This document shows, piece after piece, positions 473 through 36,717 of a stretch of DNA of 42,236 nt. Below the pieces are notes generated by a model that ran no database searches, was not told where the DNA came from, and saw only the letters and a list, made by a program, of their open reading frames with translations. Origin of the DNA: a virus. A program made the translations under genes and the position numbers. The number at the start of each line of letters is the position of its first letter. The stretch's first letter is position 1. The DNA is taken from the UHGV virus genome UHGV-0797471; one strand, written 5' to 3'.

Positions 473-739
473 ATGCGCAGAAAAGAATCAAACGTTAGCA
501 GTTTGCCGGAACTCACCAATTTTGAGGTAAGCTATTCCCTAGTTACCAATGAAGTTTACTTGTCTGCATCCTTCACTGATAACATGGCCTGTATACCAAA
601 CTGGCCCTTACAAGAATTTCCGGATCAACTAATATGCATTTCTCGAGCAAAAGCTATTGCCCTAATCGAAGAGCTCCAGAAGACCATCGACTATATGGAC
701 GCAGGAATCGATCGACAATCAGGTAGCCTGCTCCAGTAG
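473..739 (+). CDS. Hypothetical small protein (88 aa) in AT-rich cargo region
   Basis: ORF in six-frame track; no recognisable motif; weak ribosome-binding site; AT-rich context. Confidence 0.25.
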   Translation: MRRKESNVSSLPELTNFEVSYSLVTNEVYLSASFTDNMACIPNWPLQEFPDQLICISRAKAIALIEELQKTIDYMDAGIDRQSGSLLQ

Positions 740-25503: not shown

Positions 25504-25926
25504 TTATGCCGCCGGGCAGCTCCTTCGCAAAGTCCTGATAGCCTTAGGCTTTGACTGAACTGCTTGATCCATTTCCAGAACCACGTCCAGCATAGCCAGG
25601 CAGCCGTCGATAAATCCCTCTGCAGCCTGGAGCCTCTTCAGAACTTGAGTGTGTGATACGCCGAGCTTCACACCCATAGCCCTCACAGGCATCGCCTGGA
25701 TGTAATGCCACTCAAGGAGCGTACACAGGTACGGATCTTTTTTCTTCAGGCAGTTCATAGCAGAGCTGATGATCAGACCGTCATTGTCACTGCACTTCAG
25801 CCGCCCGGCTTGCGTTGCAGGTAGCAGATTCTTAAATCCAGCGGAAACAGGTGGATAGTAGACACTGCAACCTTCGCTCGCAGCCCAGCCCCCCCATCGC
25901 TCTAAAACCAGTCGAATATCACGCAT
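25504..25926 (-). CDS. Q: Late-gene antiterminator Q (phage 82 / QuuD-like family)
   Basis: N-terminus MRDIRLVLERWGGWAA...AGFKNL... and C-terminal KRLQAAEGFIDGCLAMLDVVLEMD match the Q82/QuuD family as recalled; located immediately upstream of the lysis cassette. Confidence 0.75.
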   Translation of the reverse strand: MRDIRLVLERWGGWAASEGCSVYYPPVSAGFKNLLPATQAGRLKCSDNDGLIISSAMNCLKKKDPYLCTLLEWHYIQAMPVRAMGVKLGVSHTQVLKRLQAAEGFIDGCLAMLDVVLEMDQAVQSKPKAIRTLRRSCPAA

Positions 25927-25951
25927 AGCTCTGACCTCTACGTTTTGCTAC

Positions 25952-26242
25952 TTACCGTTCATCTTTCATTTTGAGGTTAGAAAGATGTTTAAGCCGCTGG
26001 CAATACGCTTTCCAGTAAGCCTCAGAGTGCATCGGGTGCTCGATATCGCTATACAGCCATACACAGTCGTCGCGCTGAGTTACCGGCGGTGGCGCCAACA
26101 CATCTCGAGTGGCCTGCGTTAGTGCTCTTTTGAAGAAAAAAGCCTCCCCTAAGGGCTGGTAGTCTCTGTTGAATGCTTCCCAAGCCCCCTCAGCTGTTTT
26201 GCGGATACCGTAAGGCATACATTGGCGGAATATCTTTGACAT
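25952..26242 (-). CDS. Hypothetical early protein
   Basis: 96 aa ORF between the ori-like repeats and Q; no motif recognised. Confidence 0.45.
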   Translation of the reverse strand: MSKIFRQCMPYGIRKTAEGAWEAFNRDYQPLGEAFFFKRALTQATRDVLAPPPVTQRDDCVWLYSDIEHPMHSEAYWKAYCQRLKHLSNLKMKDER

Positions 26243-26288
26243 CGTCGTATCCTCATTTAGTTATTTGCTAATTTTTTCAAGTTAATTT

Positions 26289-26554
26289 CCGGGTGACGGC
26301 TAGGTGACGCGTAATTACATATCCGTCACCTGCTGCAAAGCGCGCCATATAAGGCCTGAAGATGTTTTAGGTGACAGGTGACGGTTGATTTTAGTTCTCT
26401 ATATATAAGCGATCGTATAATACCTAAAATACACACTATCGCGTATATAGTTTTAAATTCTGCCGTCACCTGTCACCTTTAGCACATTTCCCATTGTTTT
26501 ATATATACTTTTTAAGGTGACGCTTAAGCGTTTTGCCGTCACCTAGCCGTCACC
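26289..26554. repeat. Palindromic iteron array (about 10 copies of GGTGAC/GTCACC) flanking an AT-rich core; candidate replication origin
   Basis: Mirror-symmetric clusters: 26291-26309 vs 26536-26554, 26323-26332 vs 26515-26523, 26369-26384 vs 26463-26478. AT-rich, itself near-palindromic centre at 26386-26462. Lies just downstream of the primase/helicase gene. Confidence 0.55.
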
Positions 26555-26557
26555 TTT

Positions 26558-28819
26558 TTACAATCCAGATTGCAAAATTTCGCAAGATTTATATATTTCG
26601 CGCAATTCTTCGTTGCTGAAATCGTTATTTTTTACAAGAATCCAAATCCTATATACAAACCCGTCAATTTTTACGCGTACGGGTTCCCGCTTTGTTCTTT
26701 CTTTCAAAATGCGAGTAATATGCTTCTGGTTAATTTCTACATCCATTCCTGCTTCTGCCAGTATTGCGTTAACAATTTGTTGATAAGTCATTGCTGGCAC
26801 AGGCGGATTATCCAGGATTTCAATAAGAGCAGCCTCCACATCGCTCTTATTGCTTTCAATCATCAGAAGGCGTTCTTTCGTCTCGGGGGCGCGCTGCCAG
26901 TTAAAGCGAGACAGGTCAACGCCCATCAGATACCAGTACACCTGGGCGATAAAGTCGCTGTCGCTTAGCGCACCGTACAGGCTGGCGTAATGCTCTTCAG
27001 TTGCGGCGAAGTCAGGGCCCCCCAGCACAGCGATACGTCGGTCTTCCTCTGGCAGCGCCAGCGCATCAAAGTGGTTGGTGTAGAACAGAAAGCCGGTGTA
27101 TATATCCATCGTTTTTTTGCTGCCATATTTGCGGTTCACTTCAAACCGTGGTTCTGTCAGCACGTCACGGATCTTATCGTTCACCTCATACCGCTTATCA
27201 TTTTCGCGCACCTCGTCAATGGTGCATAGAAGCGTATTGTACAGATAGTCATGGAACTGGTTATCGCACAGGATCTTCATGCGAGTACGAGCACAGTTCC
27301 ACGGACCAAGCACGCGCTCCATTAACTGGCTGACCCATCCTCTGCCCGTACCATGTGCGGAAGCCACATGCAGAATAGAAATCGGGCATCGACGCTCCGG
27401 ACGCTGAACCATCCACCCCAGACGGGCGATGAAAAACTCGCGCTGCCAGGCATCAGGTACCAGATACGCCATATGATTAAGGAACGTGGACACCTTACTT
27501 GTATCCGCTGTACGTGGATGCTCAGGCATATAAAATTCGTTTATCTCAAACCGCCCGTCGAAACGCTCGATAATACGTCCCGCACCGGGCTTATAGCCTG
27601 TCGTCTCAGCAATCTTCTTATGCCGATGCTCTATCCACCGTTTGGTTGCGGGAGTTGGTTGCCCTTTCCCTTCTGGCGGGAACTGGTAAGGCGCCATCAG
27701 GTTTTTGAACGACTTCATATCCATCATGCACTGATATGGCGGTCGGCTAAGATCACATACCTGGTCACCCTCGATGACGTAGATAAAGCGTTCCAGAAAA
27801 TGAGCTGTCATATCTGTATTAATATCGGTAAATTCAGGCTTATCGCCATCTTCAACCACCGTGAGATCTTCGAACAGGGATTGCGTATAGCCGTAGCCTT
27901 CCAGCCAGTCGGCATCAGTAAGCCCCGCATCGGTGTTGTGCATGCTTTTAAAATGTCCCTGTTCAAATCCCCCCGTCCCTTTTGGGAAATACTTAATGGA
28001 TGTTTCGCTGCAACCGTTGCTGTATTCTGACTCATCCCGAAACGGTTTCAGATTGCGGGAACCATCAGAGCTGACTGACAGAGTCCACCCGTTCGCGTCA
28101 AGCCAGTCGGCGACATCATCTGTCGCGGAAGGATCAACACAGGAAAGATCACGCTGACGTCCTGCACCTGCGGTATAGCTGTCTTTCACGGGTAAGTTAT
28201 CCGCCAGACGCTGCCACAGGCTTTCGAGCTGTTCAGATGTAATTTTCAGAGGTTCGCCGGGCAGACCGCAGTCCCACTGAATACGTTCGCCTGCCGGATG
28301 GGTACCACAAGCCACAAACTGCTGGCCCTTAGCGAGCAGCTCTATTTGTTTGTTTTCGCCTTCCAGGCGGTGACCACGTTTACGGTAGTCGCCATCAACA
28401 GCAATCAGGTACAGGCATTTATGACTGTCAGCCCGCCAGCGACGTGGCGGAAGTTCCCCCAGGCATGACAGGATAATATTGCGTACGATCTCCTGCATCC
28501 CGGCGTCATTGATATCGCAGTCCAGAGCCACCACCCCGTCGCCAGTACGAACGCAAATACCGTAATCGGGTTCGTTCGACCACCGGGCAAAATCGTTTTC
28601 CGTAACAACATAGTTAGCCCAGTCGGGGATACCAACAACCTTACGTTGGCCATTGTAGCGACTGGGGGTTTTGCCGAAATTATGAGACAGCTTGCTATTA
28701 GGCGACAGTTCTGCACAGGGATTGGACACCACAGGTAAAAGCCTGTCTGTCATCCCCAACACCAGATCGAAGTGGAACCACTCATCGGGCGTAGCTCCCC
28801 ATGGTTTGTTATCAGACAT
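26558..28819 (-). CDS. Replication protein: primase (Prim-Pol-like N-terminus) with D5/P4-alpha-like NTPase C-terminus
   Basis: 753 aa; N-terminal VALDCDINDAG-type acidic motif; C-terminal degenerate P-loop HVASAHGTGRGW; first gene after cro in the early operon. Confidence 0.6.
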   Translation of the reverse strand: MSDNKPWGATPDEWFHFDLVLGMTDRLLPVVSNPCAELSPNSKLSHNFGKTPSRYNGQRKVVGIPDWANYVVTENDFARWSNEPDYGICVRTGDGVVALDCDINDAGMQEIVRNIILSCLGELPPRRWRADSHKCLYLIAVDGDYRKRGHRLEGENKQIELLAKGQQFVACGTHPAGERIQWDCGLPGEPLKITSEQLESLWQRLADNLPVKDSYTAGAGRQRDLSCVDPSATDDVADWLDANGWTLSVSSDGSRNLKPFRDESEYSNGCSETSIKYFPKGTGGFEQGHFKSMHNTDAGLTDADWLEGYGYTQSLFEDLTVVEDGDKPEFTDINTDMTAHFLERFIYVIEGDQVCDLSRPPYQCMMDMKSFKNLMAPYQFPPEGKGQPTPATKRWIEHRHKKIAETTGYKPGAGRIIERFDGRFEINEFYMPEHPRTADTSKVSTFLNHMAYLVPDAWQREFFIARLGWMVQRPERRCPISILHVASAHGTGRGWVSQLMERVLGPWNCARTRMKILCDNQFHDYLYNTLLCTIDEVRENDKRYEVNDKIRDVLTEPRFEVNRKYGSKKTMDIYTGFLFYTNHFDALALPEEDRRIAVLGGPDFAATEEHYASLYGALSDSDFIAQVYWYLMGVDLSRFNWQRAPETKERLLMIESNKSDVEAALIEILDNPPVPAMTYQQIVNAILAEAGMDVEINQKHITRILKERTKREPVRVKIDGFVYRIWILVKNNDFSNEELREIYKSCEILQSGL

Positions 28820-28822
28820 GGG

Positions 28823-29023
28823 TTACGCCTTTTGTCTAGCTGTCACTTCCTGAAAAAGCTTTTCTATCGCACGTACTGTAGAAAAGCGAGGGTCAGAATG
28901 AACCCCGGTGAGAAGCCGACTAATAGAAGACTGCTTCACGCCTGCAATTTCGGCAATTTGGTTTTGGGTATACCCTGAATCAATCAAGCTTTTGACCATC
29001 TCTTGTGGTGTTAGTCCGGACAT
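28823..29023 (-). CDS. cro: Cro-like HTH transcriptional regulator
   Basis: 66 aa; helix-turn-helix TQNQIAEIAGVKQSSISRLLTG; divergent from CI repressor; GGAG Shine-Dalgarno. Confidence 0.65.
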   Translation of the reverse strand: MSGLTPQEMVKSLIDSGYTQNQIAEIAGVKQSSISRLLTGVHSDPRFSTVRAIEKLFQEVTARQKA

Positions 29024-29164
29024 ATTTAAGTCTCCACTTTCGTCTATAGCGCAAATTTATACGAAAACGGATTATTCAGCAATACGGCAATTCTATATCA
29101 TCCTGGATTAAAATATCCGATAACGCATAATCACCGTCCCTGTATACAACATGGATGAATCCAA
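29024..29164. promoter_or_regulatory. Immunity switch region: divergent cro and cI promoters with candidate operators
   Basis: Minus-strand TTGCTG-16nt-ATAAAT candidate cro promoter; repeated ATACGAAAACGG / ATAACGCATAAT motifs, with related copies downstream of cI near 29940-29975. Confidence 0.5.
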
Positions 29165-29839
29165 ATGATTGATACTACCGATATCCTTTCTCAAAACATC
29201 AAGTACCTGATGGACAAAGCCAAGATAAGCTCGATAACTGAGCTGGCACGTCGGTTACAACTGAACCAACCAACGCTACACAGGCTGGTATCAGGAGAGG
29301 TGAAAGATCCGAAATACGCAACGTTAAAGCAGATCGCCGACTACTTCCACGTGTCACCAATAGACCTGGCAGAAAGGAGCCTTCAAGAAATGGAGAAAGA
29401 GGACGCGACGGGTATAAAAACGTATATTTCTCTTAGGTTTAATAAAGTACCTGTTTTGGGAAACACTCAGCTAGGCGTTGGAGGACTTTGGAGCGACACC
29501 CAATATTCAGTAGGTAGCAGTGATGGTTTCATATACTGGCCGACAAAGGATGAAGATGCATACGCCCTGAAATGTGTTGGTGATTCAATGATGCCTAGAA
29601 TCAAAGAGGGTGAGTTCGTAATCGTCGAACCCAACCACGACTACACTCCTGGTGATGAAGTACTTGTGGTTACCCGGGACGGTGAGGTCATGGTTAAAAC
29701 CTTCTTGTTCGAACGCGATGGCCTGTTCCATCTAATGTCTGTAAATGAAGATCATCCACCAGTCAGAGTACCACGCGAAAACATTGAAAAAATCCATTAC
29801 GTGGCGGGGATCGCCAAATCCGCGCTACGCATGTACTAA
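29165..29839 (+). CDS. cI: CI-type prophage repressor (N-terminal HTH, C-terminal S24 LexA-like autopeptidase)
   Basis: HTH ITELARRLQLNQPTLHRLVSG; S24 catalytic motifs GDSMMPRI (Ser) and VMVKTF (Lys); divergent from cro. Confidence 0.85.
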   Translation: MIDTTDILSQNIKYLMDKAKISSITELARRLQLNQPTLHRLVSGEVKDPKYATLKQIADYFHVSPIDLAERSLQEMEKEDATGIKTYISLRFNKVPVLGNTQLGVGGLWSDTQYSVGSSDGFIYWPTKDEDAYALKCVGDSMMPRIKEGEFVIVEPNHDYTPGDEVLVVTRDGEVMVKTFLFERDGLFHLMSVNEDHPPVRVPRENIEKIHYVAGIAKSALRMY

Positions 29840-29870
29840 CCTTTACAGTCTGATAACTTACTTCTGATCA

Positions 29871-29900
29871 AACCGCTCTCCACAAGGGCGGTTTTCTTAT
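29871..29900 (+). terminator. Intrinsic terminator after cI
   Basis: CCGCTCT-CCACA-AGGGCGG stem-loop followed by TTTTCTTATTT. Confidence 0.5.
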
Positions 29901-32059: not shown

Positions 32060-33361
32060 ATGCCAGACGTTCATGCACAACTTTCTCCATCATCAGCGCA
32101 TCGATGGATGCGCTGCCCAGGAAGTCTGGCGCTGGAGGCCACACAACCGGATAAAGAAACAACTTTTGCAATCGAGGGCACTGCAGCGCACGCGCTTGCT
32201 GAAAAAGTTCTACGAAACAGGCAAAGCCACCCGGAACACTACGCCGGATGCAATGTTTCTATGTTTCTCGGCTCATACCCCCTTCGCGAAAATCCTGATG
32301 ATACATCTGGCCCACAGGTGGATGATGAAATGGTCGAAGCCGTTGGCCGGTATGTTGATACGGTCTGGACTCTTGCACAGAATAATGAACTATTGGTTGA
32401 ACAACGTGTTGATTTCTCACATATAACGGGTGTGGAAGAATCTTTCGGAACTGCCGACGGCATAATCATCGCTGGTAGCGAATTACAAATCCACGACCTG
32501 AAATATGGCAAAGGCGTCCGCATTGATGCAGAACAAAATGAGCAACTACAACTGTATGCTCTGGGTGCTCTCGAACAATTCAGCATGCTGTATGACTTTG
32601 AGACTGTAAGATTATTTATTCACCAGCCAAGGCTCAACCACGTTTCAGAATGGTCGTTAACCGTGCAGGAACTTCAGTCTTTCGGTAAACGAGCACAGGA
32701 GGCCGCAACCAGTGCGATCCTTGTTCTCAATATTGCTGAATGCGAAGGCATTGAGACACTACCGCTGGAAAACTTCATACCTGGAGAAAAGCAGTGCCGC
32801 TTCTGTAAAGCAAAAGCTATTTGCACTGCCCAGAAAATGCAGCATTTACAAACAGCGGCCAGCGACTTTGAAGATCTGACAAAGCCTGTCAGCGAAATAA
32901 TCACCAATGCCAGCGCACGTGTACCTCTGTTAACCATTGAGCAGCTTGCGGAGATCTATAGCCAGGCCGACTTTATTGAGTCCTGGCTAAAGGCAGTACG
33001 GGACCGGGTTCACAATGAACTCAATGCCGGACATCCGGTACCGGGGTTTAAACTGGTAACAGGAAAACAAGGTAACCGGGCCTGGAGTGATGAAGAGGCA
33101 GCTCGCGCACTTCTGAAGGACCAGTTCAGGTACAAAACTGAAGAAGTATTCGACTTTAAACTTATTAGTCCCACAAAAGCCGAAAAACTTATCAAAAAGG
33201 CCAGTCCACGCCGTTGGTCAAAAGTCGAGGCACTGATAACACGAGCTGATGGTAAACCAACCGTCGTTCCCGAGTCAGACCCACGCCCCGCACTCAATAT
33301 CAACCCTGTAAATGATTTCGACGACGTATCCGACGATACGCTAACCGCAGACCTCATCTGA
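32060..33361 (+). CDS. PD-(D/E)XK nuclease, DUF2800 / Cas4-RecB-like
   Basis: N-terminal [15 protein letters not shown] signature of DUF2800; C-terminal Cys cluster [10 protein letters not shown]; upstream of DUF2815 and PolA as in the known phage module. Confidence 0.7.
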
Positions 33362-33376
33362 TTTAAGGAAATACCC

Positions 33377-33925
33377 ATGAAACTGAAGCTGAACAATGTT
33401 CGTCTGGCCTTCCCGTCTCTGTTTGAAGCTAAAACTGTAAACGGCGAAGGCGATCCGCGTTTCTCCGCAGTATTTTTAATGTCTCCCAAACACCCACAAC
33501 TGGAAGAAATCCGTAAAGCTATGAAGCAGGTAGCGAAGGAAAAATGGGGAGAGAAGTGGGAGCCCATTTATAACCAGCTGGAGAAAAAACTCAATCTGTG
33601 CCTGCATGATGGTGATGAAAAAGCAGAGTATGAAGGCTTCCCCGGCAATTTCTTCCTGAATGCTGCTAACAAAGCGCGCCCAGCTGTTCTTGATCGCGAT
33701 CGTTCGCCACTTATTCAGGCTGACGGACGTCCTTATGCAGGGTGCTATGTAAACGCCGTTATCGATATCTGGGCACAGGACAATAATTTCGGTAAACGCA
33801 TTAATGCCTCACTCGGCGGAGTCCAGTTCCTGCGAGACGGCGATGCATTCGCTGGCGGCGGAGTGGCAAGCGCTGACGATTTCGACGATATCAGCGAAGG
33901 TGCTGATGCTGAAGCACTAATTTAA
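33377..33925 (+). CDS. DUF2815-type phage ssDNA-binding protein
   Basis: MKLKLNNVRLAFPSLFEAK... N-terminus typical of DUF2815; acidic C-terminal tail DDFDDISEGADAEALI. Confidence 0.65.
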   Translation: MKLKLNNVRLAFPSLFEAKTVNGEGDPRFSAVFLMSPKHPQLEEIRKAMKQVAKEKWGEKWEPIYNQLEKKLNLCLHDGDEKAEYEGFPGNFFLNAANKARPAVLDRDRSPLIQADGRPYAGCYVNAVIDIWAQDNNFGKRINASLGGVQFLRDGDAFAGGGVASADDFDDISEGADAEALI

Positions 33926-33977
33926 CCCTACTTCATAGACGCCCGGTTAAACACCGGGCTACTGATTAGGCGTATAA

Positions 33978-34607
33978 TCACTCAGGAATCTTAATCTTTC
34001 TCAATTCTTTATTTAGTTCACAGATCTTTTTCTTAGACGGGAAAGTATCATACATCCAAAAACCAACAGTCTCTAAAACTATTATCATAACCATATACAC
34101 AAGATAATTTAAAAGGCCTTCATTTTGCCCTATGGAAATAATGCAGATAATAGAAAAAAGGGTAAACAGCACAAAACACAGAAAGGAAAACAGACGACTA
34201 ATAATAAATAAAAAACCTGAAAAATCAACATTAATAAAAAACACTCCGTTATCTTTCTCTATATAATTCTGAAGCTTAATCAACTGATTTATATACTGTC
34301 TTTTTTCTAATCTATTGCAAATGTAAATAACATCTCTTCGGTTATAAGAGGATTGCAATTTCAGCGCATCACGAATAATTTTATCATTTATTCTTTTTTC
34401 TATGGCTTTCTTATCCTCCTTATCCAGATAACGTTCATACTTAATTAAATATAAAATTAACTTCTTGACATATTTAGGCTCTTTATACTTATAATTAAAA
34501 ATGATCTTTCTTATCCAGACTCCCATAACAATCAAACATGAAAAAATATATCCAGCTATTTTCTCCAGATGCTCTGTATGGTCAATCAAGTATTGGATCA
34601 TATGCAT
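33978..34607 (-). CDS. AT-rich multi-pass membrane protein (moron; candidate superinfection-exclusion / abortive-infection protein)
   Basis: 209 aa with N- and C-terminal hydrophobic helices and a Lys-rich middle; strongly AT-rich; antisense to the replication operon between the SSB and polymerase genes. Confidence 0.5.
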   Translation of the reverse strand: MHMIQYLIDHTEHLEKIAGYIFSCLIVMGVWIRKIIFNYKYKEPKYVKKLILYLIKYERYLDKEDKKAIEKRINDKIIRDALKLQSSYNRRDVIYICNRLEKRQYINQLIKLQNYIEKDNGVFFINVDFSGFLFIISRLFSFLCFVLFTLFSIICIISIGQNEGLLNYLVYMVMIIVLETVGFWMYDTFPSKKKICELNKELRKIKIPE

Positions 34608-34653
34608 AATTAATCTTTTAATCAGTTAATAGAATAAAAACCTAGGTAAACAC

Positions 34654-36717
34654 ATGTCCAATATACTATGGGGCGACCTGGAAACCTATTGCGAAATCCC
34701 TATTACGAACGGTACCCATGCGTATGCCGAAGGCGTTGAAGTGATGCTTTTCGCATGGGCTATCAACGACGGGCCAGTAAACGTGTGGGATATCACTGCC
34801 GGTGGTGGTATTCCACACGGCTTATACGAAGCAATCGCAGACCCTGAAACCCTGCTTTATTTCCATAACTCTCACTTCGACCGCACCGTTCTGCGTTATG
34901 CAATGCCGCGACTGGCACCGCCAGTCGAACGTTGGCGCGACACGATGGTGCAGGCGCTGGCGCACGGTCTCCCGGGGTCTCTGGGGGAACTCTGCGAAGT
35001 ACTAGGCGTCCCGCAAGACAAAGCGAAGGACAAAGAAGGTAAAGCGCTGATCCAGCTGTTCTGTAAGCCACGTCCGAAAAACAGCAAACTGCGTCGGGCC
35101 ACCAGTAAAACCCATCCGGAAGAATGGCGGCGCTTTGTTGCTTACGCCGGACTGGATATCGAAGCAATGCGTGAAGTCTATAAACGTCTGCCGAAGTGGA
35201 ATTATCAGGGGACAGAGCTGGCGCTCTGGCATCGTGATCAGCAGATCAACGACCGGGGCGTCTGCATGGACATGCAACTCGCGCGCGCTGCGATCGAAGC
35301 GGTAGACCAGGAGCAAAAGCGCCTGGCAAAGCGTACACAGGAAATGACTGATGGCGAAGTGCAGGCAGCCACACAACGGGACGCGTTGATTAAGCACATC
35401 GTTGAATCCTACGGTGTGGAGCTACCAGACATGCAACGCAGTACCCTGGAACGTCGTATGGCCGACCCCGATTTATCATCTGCCGTGAAAGAACTGCTGG
35501 CTATCCGCCTGCAAGCCAGTACTACCAGCACCAGTAAATACAAGGCACTGATGAAAGGCGTAAGCCACGACGGGCGCTTACGCGGTACGCTACAGTTCTG
35601 CGGGGCGTCACGTACCGGTCGTTGGGCCGGACGGCTATTCCAGCCCCAGAACCTTCCCCGCCCTTCACTAAAACAGGAACAAATAGACGAAGGCATCGAA
35701 GCACTGAAAGCCGGATGTGCAGACCTGCTGTTTGACAATATCATGGAACTAACCAGTTCAGCGTTACGTGGCTGCATTATCGCGCCAACAGGCAAAAAAC
35801 TAGTGGTAAGTGACTTGTCAAACATTGAAGGCCGTATGCTGGCATGGCTGGCGGGAGAAGAATGGAAACTGAATGCATTCAGAGAGTATGACGCTGGAAC
35901 GGGTCCGGACTTATATAAACTGGCGTATGCAAAAGCTTTCGATATTGCACCAGATGATGTTGATAAACACATGCGTCAGATCGGTAAAGTCATGGAACTC
36001 GGTCTGGGTTATGGAGGTGGTGTATCGGCTTTCATCACTTTTGCTCTGGTTTACGGTCTCGATCTCGACGAGCTGGCGAACGCCGCACTGCCAAACATTC
36101 CCCGCGATGTTATCCGCGAGGCAAAAAGCTGGTACGACGAATCGGTTAAGCGTAAGTCGACCTTTGGCCTGTCCGAGCGTGTATTCATCGCATGTGACTC
36201 GCTCAAGCGCCTGTGGCGCAGGGCGCACCCGGCGACCTGCGATTTCTGGTACGAGCTGGAGCGCACTGTCCGCACAGCAATCGCCACACCGCAAAAAACA
36301 TTGTATTGCGGCTATCTTAAAATCCGACGTGATGGCGCGTGGCTGCGCATACAGCTACCATCCGGACGCGCTGTATGCTACCCGTCTCCGGTTATCGAAC
36401 AAGGGAATATCACCTACATGGGTGTTAACTCTTATTCGCGTAAATGGCAACGACTCAAAACCTACGGCGGAAAGCTGGTGGAGAACGTCACCCAGGCGGC
36501 CGCCCGCGACGTTCTAGCCAGAAACATGCCGCTGATCGAGGGTGCCGGTTACAGCATTGTGCTAACGGTACACGACGAGGTGATCACCGAAGCACCAGAC
36601 ACAGAAGATTTCAACGATAAAGCGCTTTCCGCGCTTCTCTCCACTAACCCCGAATGGGCACCCGATATTCCGCTGAACGCTGGCGGCTTTGAGGCGTACC
36701 ACTACAAAAAAGATTGA
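34654..36717 (+). CDS. Family A DNA polymerase (Pol I-like with 3'-5' exonuclease domain)
   Basis: N-terminal exo motif WGDLETY; polymerase motifs [16 protein letters not shown] and [11 protein letters not shown]; 687 aa. Confidence 0.85.

What the first reader, a model, noticed from the sequence alone, without database searches (positions are those of the whole stretch)
26289..26554. Large dyad-symmetric iteron array downstream of the primase/helicase: candidate origin
Seen in sequence: about 10 copies of GGTGAC/GTCACC in three mirror-paired clusters around an AT-rich, itself near-palindromic, centre. The array sits between the stop of the primase/helicase gene and the next gene.

Established knowledge: iterons flanking an AT-rich unwinding element are typical of phage and plasmid origins, for example P4 ori bound by its alpha primase-helicase.

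Inference: binding site array for the adjacent replication protein.
Basis: partly seen in the sequence, partly recalled or inferred. Interest (0 to 1): 0.5.

Follow-up and report, generated by a model that had tools for sequence, protein, structure and literature searches.

The report
Iteron origin beside phage primase-helicase gene
A 263-bp mirror-symmetric array of ten short repeats just after a temperate E. coli phage's primase-helicase gene is very probably that phage's replication origin, because in related phages all ten repeats change together with a few residues of the replication protein's DNA-binding tail.

Summary
Ten GGTGAC hexamers (unit about A-GGTGAC-R-G) lie at 26292-26554, five per strand. 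They are mirror-symmetric to within 1 bp about position 26423 and flank a 79-bp, 72% A+T centre. The array starts 3 nt after the stop of a 753-aa PrimPol + DUF5906 (SF3-type) protein.

Relatives of that protein at 36-100% identity, from Escherichia to Avibacterium, carry a comparable array directly after the stop. Those at 67-100% identity (plus a 59%-identical Xenorhabdus relative) keep the same layout at almost fixed offsets. At least five unit classes occur: GGTGACGG, GGTGACAG, GGTGGCAG, GGTAACAG and GGTGTCAG. In each phage, all or nearly all sites carry the same class.

The class tracks residues 712-725 of the replication protein. These lie in the beta-hairpin wing of a predicted C-terminal winged-helix domain. 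The class does not track cI, Cro, Q or the downstream ORF. In E. coli prophages the divergent segment is a sharply bounded cassette of about 440 bp (array plus the last ~55 rep codons).

This matches the rep-then-iteron-origin layout known from SaPI satellites, and it resembles pRN1/BIP-1. The papers that classify this replication module in Stx phages (Eru10) do not mention it. Verdict: a new member of a known kind. Origin activity itself remains inferred.

The parts
26292..26554 (.). Whole iteron array. It holds ten A-GGTGAC-R-G units, five in each orientation, with a dyad centre at about 26423.
   Evidence: The layout is conserved in relatives.
26463..26554 (-). Rep-proximal arm. Hexamers lie at 26549-26554(-), 26538-26543(-), 26516-26521(+), 26472-26477(-) and 26465-26470(-). 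Centre-to-centre spacings are 11, 22, 44 and 7 bp.
   Evidence: Offsets 4+, 15+, 37-, 81+, 88+ after the rep stop are nearly invariant in 27 loci.
26292..26384 (+). Q-proximal arm, the mirror image of the other arm. Hexamers lie at 26292(+), 26303(+), 26325(-), 26370(+) and 26377(+).
26385..26463 (.). A+T-rich centre (79 bp, 72% A+T) with inner inverted repeat 26402-26416 / 26435-26449 and conserved blocks (TCTATATA..., CTCGCGTATATA). It is the presumed unwinding element.
   Evidence: Centre columns show 72% pairwise identity, against 59% in the spacers.
26558..28819 (-). Replication protein gene (753 aa). Domains: PrimPol (aa 75-185), DUF5906/NrS-1-like SF3 helicase (aa 456-659) and a C-terminal winged helix (about aa 676-753).
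26561..26794 (-). Codons for the C-terminal winged-helix domain (about aa 676-753).
26639..26686 (-). Codons for the wing beta-hairpin (aa 712-727), the segment that co-varies with iteron class. The most informative positions are 715, 721, 722, 723 and 725.
26290..26727 (.). Divergent specificity cassette (array plus the last ~55 rep codons). It is 58-92% identical to E. coli relatives in 60-nt windows (lowest in the array, highest around the rep stop), and the flanks are about 100% identical.

Best explanation
The array is the replication origin of this temperate phage, a cI / cro / rep / ori / Q module of the type called Eru10 in Stx phages.

Proposed mechanism:
1. The winged-helix C-terminal domain of the PrimPol-SF3 protein encoded immediately upstream binds the ten A-GGTGAC-R-G sites.
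2. Because the two five-site arms are mirror images, protein assembles in opposite orientations on either side of the 79-bp A+T-rich centre.
3. The centre is melted and the PrimPol domain primes synthesis.
4. Forks leave in both directions, probably using the phage's own family-A polymerase, exonuclease and gp2.5-like SSB.

What is shown: the array, its symmetry, its conservation, the winged-helix fold, and the co-variation between iteron class and wing residues.

What is inferred: physical binding, melting, double-hexamer loading, bidirectionality, and use of the phage polymerase.
For: 1. Ten sites with 1-bp mirror symmetry lie around an A+T-rich centre, 3 nt after the rep stop.

2. The layout is conserved. 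Offsets 4+, 15+, 37-, 81+, 88+, ~176-, ~183-, ~228+, ~250-, ~261- recur in 27 loci with Rep 67-100% identical, and in Serratia, Erwinia, Izhakiella and Xenorhabdus genomes (shifted in Arsenophonus). Xenorhabdus (59%) keeps that layout. Avibacterium (36%) and Limnobaculum (46%) have analogous nine-copy arrays with less regular spacing.

3. The pattern of selection fits binding sites. Invariant iteron positions show 99.1% pairwise identity, against 59% for spacers and 49% for the class dinucleotide.

4. Switching is concerted. All or nearly all sites in a phage carry the same class: GGTGACGG, GGTGACAG, GGTGGCAG, GGTAACAG or GGTGTCAG.

5. The protein partner is identified by co-variation.
- E. 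coli Reps are 98-100% identical over aa 1-700 and diverge only at about aa 700-745. All but one of the class-diagnostic columns lie at 712-725.
- The five columns most informative about class are 722, 715, 721, 723 and 725. Backbone clade explains only 27% of the class information. Of the two backbone clades with more than two members, one holds three classes and the other four.

6. Other proteins are excluded. cI and Cro are identical between a GGTGAC phage and a GGTAAC phage, the 96-aa ORF is identical between GGTGAC and GGTGGC phages, and Q does not track class.

7. The tail (aa 640-753) folds as helix-strand-helix-helix-strand-strand-helix (pLDDT 86). Its structural neighbours are nearly all winged-helix domains. 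Residues 712-727 form the wing.

8. The divergent region is a bounded cassette of about 440 bp, comprising the wing codons plus the array.

9. The anatomy matches the experimentally characterised SaPI origin. There, 6-12 penta- or hexanucleotide iterons lie immediately downstream of rep, with an A+T-rich centre, opposite orientations on the two sides, and a winged-helix C-terminal domain that recognises them (PMC9371898).

10. PrimPol-VapE cousins have their own iteron / A+T-rich / iteron arrays in the same position.
Against: - There is no replication, binding or marker-frequency data for this phage or any relative. The Eru papers state that nothing is known about replication proteins of these phages.
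- The wing codons lie within about 130 bp of the array, so part of the co-variation could reflect physical linkage.
- The mapping is many-to-one. GGTGGC pairs with four different wing motifs: MTVRMW, DTLRFW, KKERPW and KKLRPW.
- The helicase P-loop reads GTGRG, with Arg where the NrS-1 helicase has the Walker A Lys. This is invariant in the family, so ATPase and helicase competence is uncertain.
- One relative (L032) has no array after its extended C-terminus.
- Some arrays hold one site of another class.
- No sequence similarity to SaPI Reps or to P4 alpha was detected among solved structures.
Confidence: 0.77

Rival explanations
1. The array binds Rep but serves mainly as a regulatory or roadblock element. 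Rep bound just after its own gene would gate read-through from the early operon into the 96-aa ORF and Q, so setting late-gene timing, or would act in copy control by handcuffing. The true origin would lie elsewhere.
For: The array sits inside the apparent cro-rep-ORF-Q transcription unit. The simple scans found no terminator or promoter within it. In Limnobaculum, Avibacterium and Xenorhabdus relatives Q follows 345-447 nt after rep.
Against: A mirror-symmetric two-arm layout around a conserved 72% A+T centre is origin anatomy and is not needed for a roadblock. No second iteron cluster exists in the window that could serve as the origin. The same layout is the proven origin in SaPIs. The two roles are not mutually exclusive.
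Confidence: 0.1
2. The selected feature is a large stem-loop or cruciform, as proposed for pRN1 and Bordetella phage BIP-1, which have PrimPol-SF3-winged-helix proteins. On this view the short repeats are not the point.
For: The single strand folds far better than shuffles (-56.6 kcal/mol, z = -9.9). The pRN1 study found a stem-loop 3' of the rep gene to be required for replication, and saw a similar structure after the BIP-1 rep gene.
Against: Across 16 relatives, changes on both sides of a pair are almost confined to iteron positions. Non-iteron 'pairs' in the spacers are unpaired in up to 13 of 16 sequences. Spacers are only 59% conserved, against 99% for iteron cores. The concerted class switching matched by wing changes points to protein recognition of duplex sites.
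Confidence: 0.06
3. The array is a site for another factor, such as immunity repressor operators, a packaging (pac/cos) site, a partition site or a host-protein site.
For: Dense inverted repeats also occur at operators and centromere-like sites.
Against: cI and Cro are identical in phages with different iteron classes. The terminase genes lie about 3 kb away. No DnaA box better than one mismatch and no IHF site was found. Rfam gave only sub-threshold chance hairpin matches.
Confidence: 0.04
4. The co-variation is only a by-product of linkage. The rep 3' end and the intergenic region are exchanged together by recombination, and the repeats have no sequence-specific partner.
For: The wing codons and the array are contiguous within one cassette of about 440 bp.
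Against: Linkage does not explain three observations. All ten copies within one phage carry the same dinucleotide. Core positions are 99% conserved while spacers drift. The same wing motif goes with the same class in backbones only 68-80% identical.
Confidence: 0.03

Closest known systems
SaPI (Staphylococcus aureus pathogenicity island) pri-rep-ori replicon
   Same: The origin lies immediately downstream of the rep ORF. It holds 6-12 short penta- or hexanucleotide iterons around an A+T-rich centre, with iterons on the two sides pointing in opposite directions. A winged-helix C-terminal domain of an SF3/MCM-type initiator-helicase recognises them, and binding is specific to the cognate origin. 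In SaPI5 the primase is fused to Rep (PMC9371898).
   Different: The host element here is a complete temperate phage of Enterobacterales rather than a Gram-positive satellite. No sequence similarity to SaPI Reps was detected among solved structures. The array has a fixed 5+5 layout with 11/22/44/7-bp spacing. Nothing here has been tested experimentally.
pRN1 ORF904 and Bordetella phage BIP-1/BPP-1 replication proteins (PrimPol + SF3 helicase + winged helix), with the origin 3' of the gene
   Same: The domain order is the same, with PF09250 PrimPol at the N-terminus, an SF3 helicase and a C-terminal winged helix. A large dyad or stem-loop element lies directly downstream of the rep gene, and a single multifunctional initiator is proposed (PMC4234260).
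   Different: The pRN1 authors state that their origin lacks an iteron structure and that the stem-loop itself is required. Here the conserved elements are discrete iterons, and the spacers do not keep complementarity.
Satellite phage P4 alpha protein with ori and crr
   Same: A primase-helicase with a C-terminal origin-binding winged helix binds short repeated sites. This rests on my recollection of Ziegelin and Lanka 1995 and Yeo et al. 2002, as cited.
   Different: The P4 primase is of the bacterial Toprim type. From memory, P4 ori and crr are two separate clusters that do not abut the alpha gene. Here there is a single cluster. The P4 origin-binding domain was not among the top structural neighbours.
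Eru10 replication region of Shiga-toxin phages (Fagerlund et al. 2022, PMC8951638)
   Same: The gene order is the same: cI, then one PF09250 PrimPol protein, then Q. A relative in strain STEC435, with Rep 97% identical, carries stx2b directly after Q.
   Different: That paper classifies gene content only. It does not mention iterons or an origin, and it states that nothing is known about Eru replication proteins.
SV40 and papillomavirus core origins (SF3 initiator-helicases)
   Same: From memory: inverted penta- or hexanucleotide sites for the origin-binding domain flank or adjoin A+T-rich or palindromic melting elements, and two oppositely oriented hexamers assemble there.
   Different: Those are eukaryotic viruses with a different origin-binding fold. 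This is an analogy only and was not tested here.

Membership tests
SaPI/PICI-type rep-ori replicon | Iterons lie immediately downstream of the rep ORF. | tested here: met
   The first hexamer ends 3 nt from the stop codon. The offset is the same in 27 relatives.
SaPI/PICI-type rep-ori replicon | Six to twelve short iterons surround an A+T-rich centre, with sites on the two sides in opposite orientation. | tested here: met
   Ten sites in a 5+5 mirror layout surround a 79-bp centre of 72% A+T.
SaPI/PICI-type rep-ori replicon | The initiator-helicase has a C-terminal winged-helix domain. | tested here: met
SaPI/PICI-type rep-ori replicon | Rep binds only its cognate origin, and the fragment supports Rep-dependent replication. 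| not testable with these tools
   Only indirect evidence exists: iteron class co-varies with wing residues 712-725.
SaPI/PICI-type rep-ori replicon | The protein is homologous in sequence to SaPI Rep proteins, and the element is a helper-dependent satellite. | tested here: not met
   phmmer against PDB chains found only the NrS-1 primase-helicase (E = 4e-8) and no SaPI Rep. The element carries terminase, tail and lysis genes. It is therefore an analogue rather than a member.
pRN1 ORF904 / BIP-1 type replication protein | The protein combines a PrimPol (PF09250) domain, an SF3 helicase and a C-terminal winged helix. | tested here: met
   PF09250 at aa 75-185 and PF19263 at aa 487-595. NrS-1 helicase match at aa 456-659. 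Winged helix.
pRN1 ORF904 / BIP-1 type replication protein | The origin is a conserved large stem-loop 3' of the gene, without iterons. | tested here: inconclusive
   A strong dyad lies 3' of the gene (z = -9.9). However, it is built of iterons, and the spacer pairing is not maintained.
P4 alpha / ori / crr | The protein has a Toprim-type primase domain. | tested here: not met
   Pfam finds PrimPol PF09250 and no Toprim domain.
P4 alpha / ori / crr | Two separated iteron clusters (ori and crr) are present. | tested here: not met
   AGGTGACRG occurs only inside 26292-26554. Other GGTGACRG matches are single and scattered.
Lambda-type origin (iterons inside the initiator gene O) | Iterons lie within the initiator coding sequence, and an O/P gene pair is present. 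| tested here: not met
   The array is intergenic. There are no O or P homologues, and one PrimPol-helicase gene lies between cro and Q.
Eru10 replication region of Stx phages | Only a PF09250 protein (plus a small ORF) and Q lie between cI and the late or stx region. | tested here: met
   Window gene order. The STEC435 relative has stx2b after Q. Description in PMC8951638.

The most novel reading that the evidence does not exclude
The wing-plus-iteron cassette of about 440 bp is a natural, exchangeable specificity module. Recombination moves it between otherwise near-identical replicases. This would create at least five mutually orthogonal replicon specificities that differ at two or three bases of the iteron (GGT-NN-C-R-G) and a handful of wing residues. 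Related co-infecting or co-resident phages, and any satellites, would then be unable to fire each other's origins. The invariant recognition helix would read the invariant GGT/C bases, and the beta-hairpin wing would read the variable dinucleotide, giving a simple recognition code that can be tested.
Probability: 0.45. Interest if true: 0.6.

Novelty: new member of a known kind. Interest (0 to 1): 0.45.

Why it matters
This gives a concrete, testable origin and initiator-DNA recognition pair for a widespread replication module of temperate phages. The module occurs in 45 of 5,426 complete E. coli genomes, and also in Salmonella, Citrobacter, Serratia, Erwinia, Xenorhabdus, Arsenophonus and Avibacterium. 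It includes the Eru10 type of Shiga-toxin phages, for which the literature says nothing is known about replication.

Phage replication level influences toxin gene dosage after induction, so knowing the origin and its specificity determinant is practically useful. The natural series of iteron classes, paired with changes in a few wing residues on a background that is otherwise 98-100% identical, is an unusually clean system for working out how a winged-helix initiator reads its site. It also allows a test of whether origin specificity diversifies to avoid cross-talk.

Tried and rejected
- A homologue search with only the C-terminal 153 aa returned mostly truncated fragments and little diversity. 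The full-length search was needed.
- The first Eru paper (Eru1-3) describes unrelated replication genes.
- Promoter and terminator scans found nothing in the array above shuffle expectation.
- Rfam gave only sub-threshold microRNA-hairpin matches caused by the palindrome.
- There was no DnaA box better than one mismatch and no IHF consensus. A single GATC is not conserved in relatives.
- The stem-loop hypothesis was tested by pair counting and not favoured.
- The 47-aa ORF inside the array (26326-26469, minus strand) was treated as spurious, because the region is non-coding in all annotated relatives.
- GC skew across the window is monotonic and uninformative about an origin.

Full report
**Observation**

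The window holds 36 GGTGAC/GTCACC hexamers, against 16.8 +/- 4 expected. Ten of them lie in 263 bp, at 26292+, 26303+, 26325-, 26370+, 26377+, 26465-, 26472-, 26516+, 26538- and 26549-. Elsewhere the density is 0.16 per 263 bp. No other G+C-containing hexamer clusters like this anywhere in the window, apart from shifted versions of the same unit.

Partner sites sum to 52846 or 52847, so the array is mirror-symmetric about 26423 to within one base. The two halves are 73% identical as reverse complements (score 112, against 27 +/- 8 for shuffles). Extended copies give a unit of about A-GGTGAC-R-G. Centre-to-centre spacings in each arm are 11, 22, 44-45 and 7 bp.

The central 79 bp (26385-26463) are 72% A+T and contain their own inverted repeat.

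**Context**

Read on the minus strand, the order is as follows:

- cI-like repressor, 29165-29839 (on the plus strand)
- Cro-like HTH protein, 28823-29023
- a 753-aa protein, 26558-28819
- the array
- a 96-aa ORF, 25952-26242
- antiterminator Q, 25504-25926
- holin, endolysin, Rz, terminase and structural genes

The 4-kb region around the array (25900-29900) is 100% identical to four induced E. coli phages, vB_EcoM-606R2 and relatives.

The 753-aa protein has a PrimPol domain (PF09250, aa 75-185) and a DUF5906 domain (aa 487-595). It matches the helicase part of the phage NrS-1 primase-helicase over aa 456-659. PHROGs calls it a DNA primase. On the other side of cI the phage carries a family-A DNA polymerase, an exonuclease and a gp2.5-like SSB.

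The last hexamer ends 3 nt before the rep stop codon. The first hexamer lies 49 nt from the next start codon. No terminator or promoter was detected in the array.

**Comparative test**

Forty-five of 5,426 complete E. coli genomes carry the intergenic region, once each. Fifteen of those copies are only 60-80% identical. Aligning six such prophages with the window shows the same ~315-bp interval. In each lineage the ten hexamers are changed together: GGTGAC in the window, GGTGGC in four strains and GGTAAC in two.

IMG/VR relatives with Rep 67-100% identical all keep 8-10 exact sites, with one exception. The sites lie at offsets 4+, 15+, 37-, 81+, 88+, ~176-, ~183-, ~228+, ~250- and ~261- after the stop. 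These relatives add the classes GGTGTCAG and GGTGACAG. Genomes of Serratia, Erwinia, Izhakiella, Arsenophonus and Xenorhabdus behave the same way, although the offsets are shifted in Arsenophonus.

More distant relatives were also checked:

| Relative | Rep identity | Array downstream of rep |
|---|---|---|
| Xenorhabdus | 59% | same layout, GGTGGCAG |
| Avibacterium | 36% | nine GGTGGC sites, less regular spacing |
| Limnobaculum | 46% | nine TGACACAG sites around an A+T-rich palindromic centre |

All three keep the cI-cro-rep-gap-Q synteny.

Cousins that share the PrimPol N-terminus but have a VapE-type helicase and a different tail also carry their own iteron / A+T-rich / iteron arrays right after the stop. 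Their units are TTACTCAACC x10, GGTGGTTCCA and GTACCAAC.

Across 16 diverse arrays, the invariant iteron positions show 99.1% pairwise identity. The class dinucleotide shows 49%, the spacers 59% and the centre 72%.

**Which protein reads the sites**

The seven E. coli Rep proteins are 98-100% identical in every 50-aa window up to residue 700. They are only 69-76% identical in residues 701-750. All but one of the columns that are fixed within a class and differ between classes lie at 712-725.

Other candidate proteins do not track the class:

- cI and Cro are identical between the window (GGTGAC) and strain B771 (GGTAAC).
- cI is identical between GGTGGC and GGTAAC phages.
- The 96-aa ORF is identical between the window and two GGTGGC phages.
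- Q follows none of the classes.

With 23 distinct Rep sequences, the columns carrying most information about iteron class are 722, 715, 721, 723 and 725. The backbone clade (aa 1-690) explains only 27% of the class information. Of the two backbone clades with more than two members, one contains three classes and the other four.

The motif pairings are as follows:

| Wing motif | Iteron class |
|---|---|
| ...GFVYRIW | GGTGACGG |
| ...GIAQRFW | GGTGACAG |
| ...G(M/L)TVRMW, ...GDTLRFW, ...GKKERPW or ...GKKLRPW | GGTGGC |
| ...G(M/I)(G/A)YRFW | GGTAAC |
| ...G(C/F/S)T(N/Q)RFW | GGTGTC |

At the DNA level the divergent segment is sharply bounded at about 26290-26727. The flanks are essentially identical on both sides. 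The wing codons and the array therefore behave as one cassette of about 440 bp.

**Fold of the tail**

Residues 698-709 form the third helix, which is nearly invariant across classes. Residues 714-727 form the beta-hairpin wing that carries the class-specific residues. A reasonable inference is that the invariant helix reads the invariant GGT/C bases and the wing reads the variable dinucleotide. This is not shown.

**Stem-loop alternative**

The single strand folds much better than shuffles (z = -9.9), as any large dyad would. I counted pairs of that fold on the 16-sequence alignment. Changes on both sides of a pair are almost confined to iteron positions, that is, to the class switches. Most spacer pairs are broken in many sequences, up to 13 of 16. 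Selection therefore acts on the sites, their orientation and spacing, and on part of the centre. It does not act on a continuous hairpin.

**Comparison with known systems**

- **SaPI replicon.** This is the best match in anatomy. The origin lies immediately downstream of rep, with 6-12 penta- or hexanucleotide iterons, an A+T-rich centre and sites on the two sides in opposite directions. A winged-helix C-terminal domain of a self-loading SF3/MCM-type helicase recognises them, and the primase is fused to Rep in SaPI5 (PMC9371898). No sequence similarity to SaPI Reps was detected and the element is a complete phage, so this is an analogue rather than a family member.
- **pRN1 ORF904 and Bordetella phage BIP-1.** In domain architecture the protein belongs with these proteins. 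Their authors proposed an origin in a large stem-loop 3' of the gene and noted the absence of iterons (PMC4234260).
- **P4.** This is a looser analogue, with a Toprim primase and separate ori and crr clusters. There is no second cluster here.
- **Eru10.** The gene module corresponds to the Eru10 replication type of Shiga-toxin phages (PMC8951638). One relative carries stx2b just after Q. The Eru papers do not mention iterons, and they say nothing is known about replication proteins of Eru phages.
- **Other literature.** Searches for DUF5906 and for the identical phages found no description of this origin.

**Caveats**

- Origin function and binding are inferred.
- Linkage between the wing codons and the array could contribute to the co-variation. 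It does not explain within-array homogeneity, or the recurrence of the same pairings on distant backbones.
- The helicase P-loop reads GTGRG, with Arg where NrS-1 has the Walker A Lys. This is invariant down to 36% identity, so self-loading helicase activity should not be assumed.
- One relative (L032) lacks the array.
- Some arrays contain a single site of another class.

**Verdict**

The array is very probably the Rep-recognised replication origin of this phage family. It is a new member of a known kind, and the exchangeable wing-plus-iteron specificity cassette is its most interesting feature.

Noticed in passing
window 27330-27365 (Rep aa ~485-496, minus strand): The helicase P-loop reads S/T-A-H-G-T-G-R-G-W. 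It has Arg where the NrS-1 helicase (GTGKG) has the Walker A lysine. The Arg is invariant in all 36 relatives that cover the helicase domain, down to 36% identity. A Walker B hhhhDE motif (LLCTIDEV) is present in nearly all of them.
   Followed up: partly
window 32060-36717: The temperate phage encodes its own exonuclease (32060-33361), a gp2.5-like SSB (33377-33925) and a family-A DNA polymerase (34654-36717), on the far side of the repressor gene from rep.
   Followed up: partly
L032 2776-3400 (IMGVR_UViG_2528768011_000002): This Rep relative has a C-terminal extension of about 20 aa and no iteron array after the stop. The next coding region follows almost directly. It may be a deletion or a defective prophage.
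   Followed up: partly
L033/L034 3721-3990; L036 3688-3963; L062 3694-4221: Proteins that share the PrimPol N-terminus (97% or ~52-62% identical over the first ~320-420 aa) but have a VapE-type helicase and a different tail carry their own mirror-arranged arrays right after the stop. The units are TTACTCAACC x10, GGTGGTTCCA and GTACCAAC, each around an A+T-rich or palindromic centre.
   Followed up: partly
alignment A3: L022 at offset 37-, L031 at offset 81+: Some arrays are mixed. The GGTGACAG-class array of L022 contains one GGTGTCAG site, and L091 and L092 likewise show only 8 exact GGTGAC sites. The GGTGTC-class array of L031 contains one GGTGAC site. These may be traces of class switching or of tolerated cross-recognition.
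   Followed up: no
L003 1189-2424 (E. coli STEC435): A prophage whose Rep is 97% identical, with a GGTGGC-class array, carries stx2b (A and B subunits) and a tRNA-Arg directly downstream of Q. This links the replication module to Shiga-toxin phages of the Eru10 type.
   Followed up: partly
window 26326-26469 (minus strand): A 47-aa GTG-initiated ORF lies wholly inside the array. It is not annotated in any related record and is probably spurious.
   Followed up: partly
window 25952-26242 versus L004/L005/L007 3255-3488 and L006 3069-3488: The small ORF between the array and Q is replaced by unrelated ORFs (96, 76 or 139 aa) in otherwise similar prophages. It has no Pfam or PHROG match.
   Followed up: no
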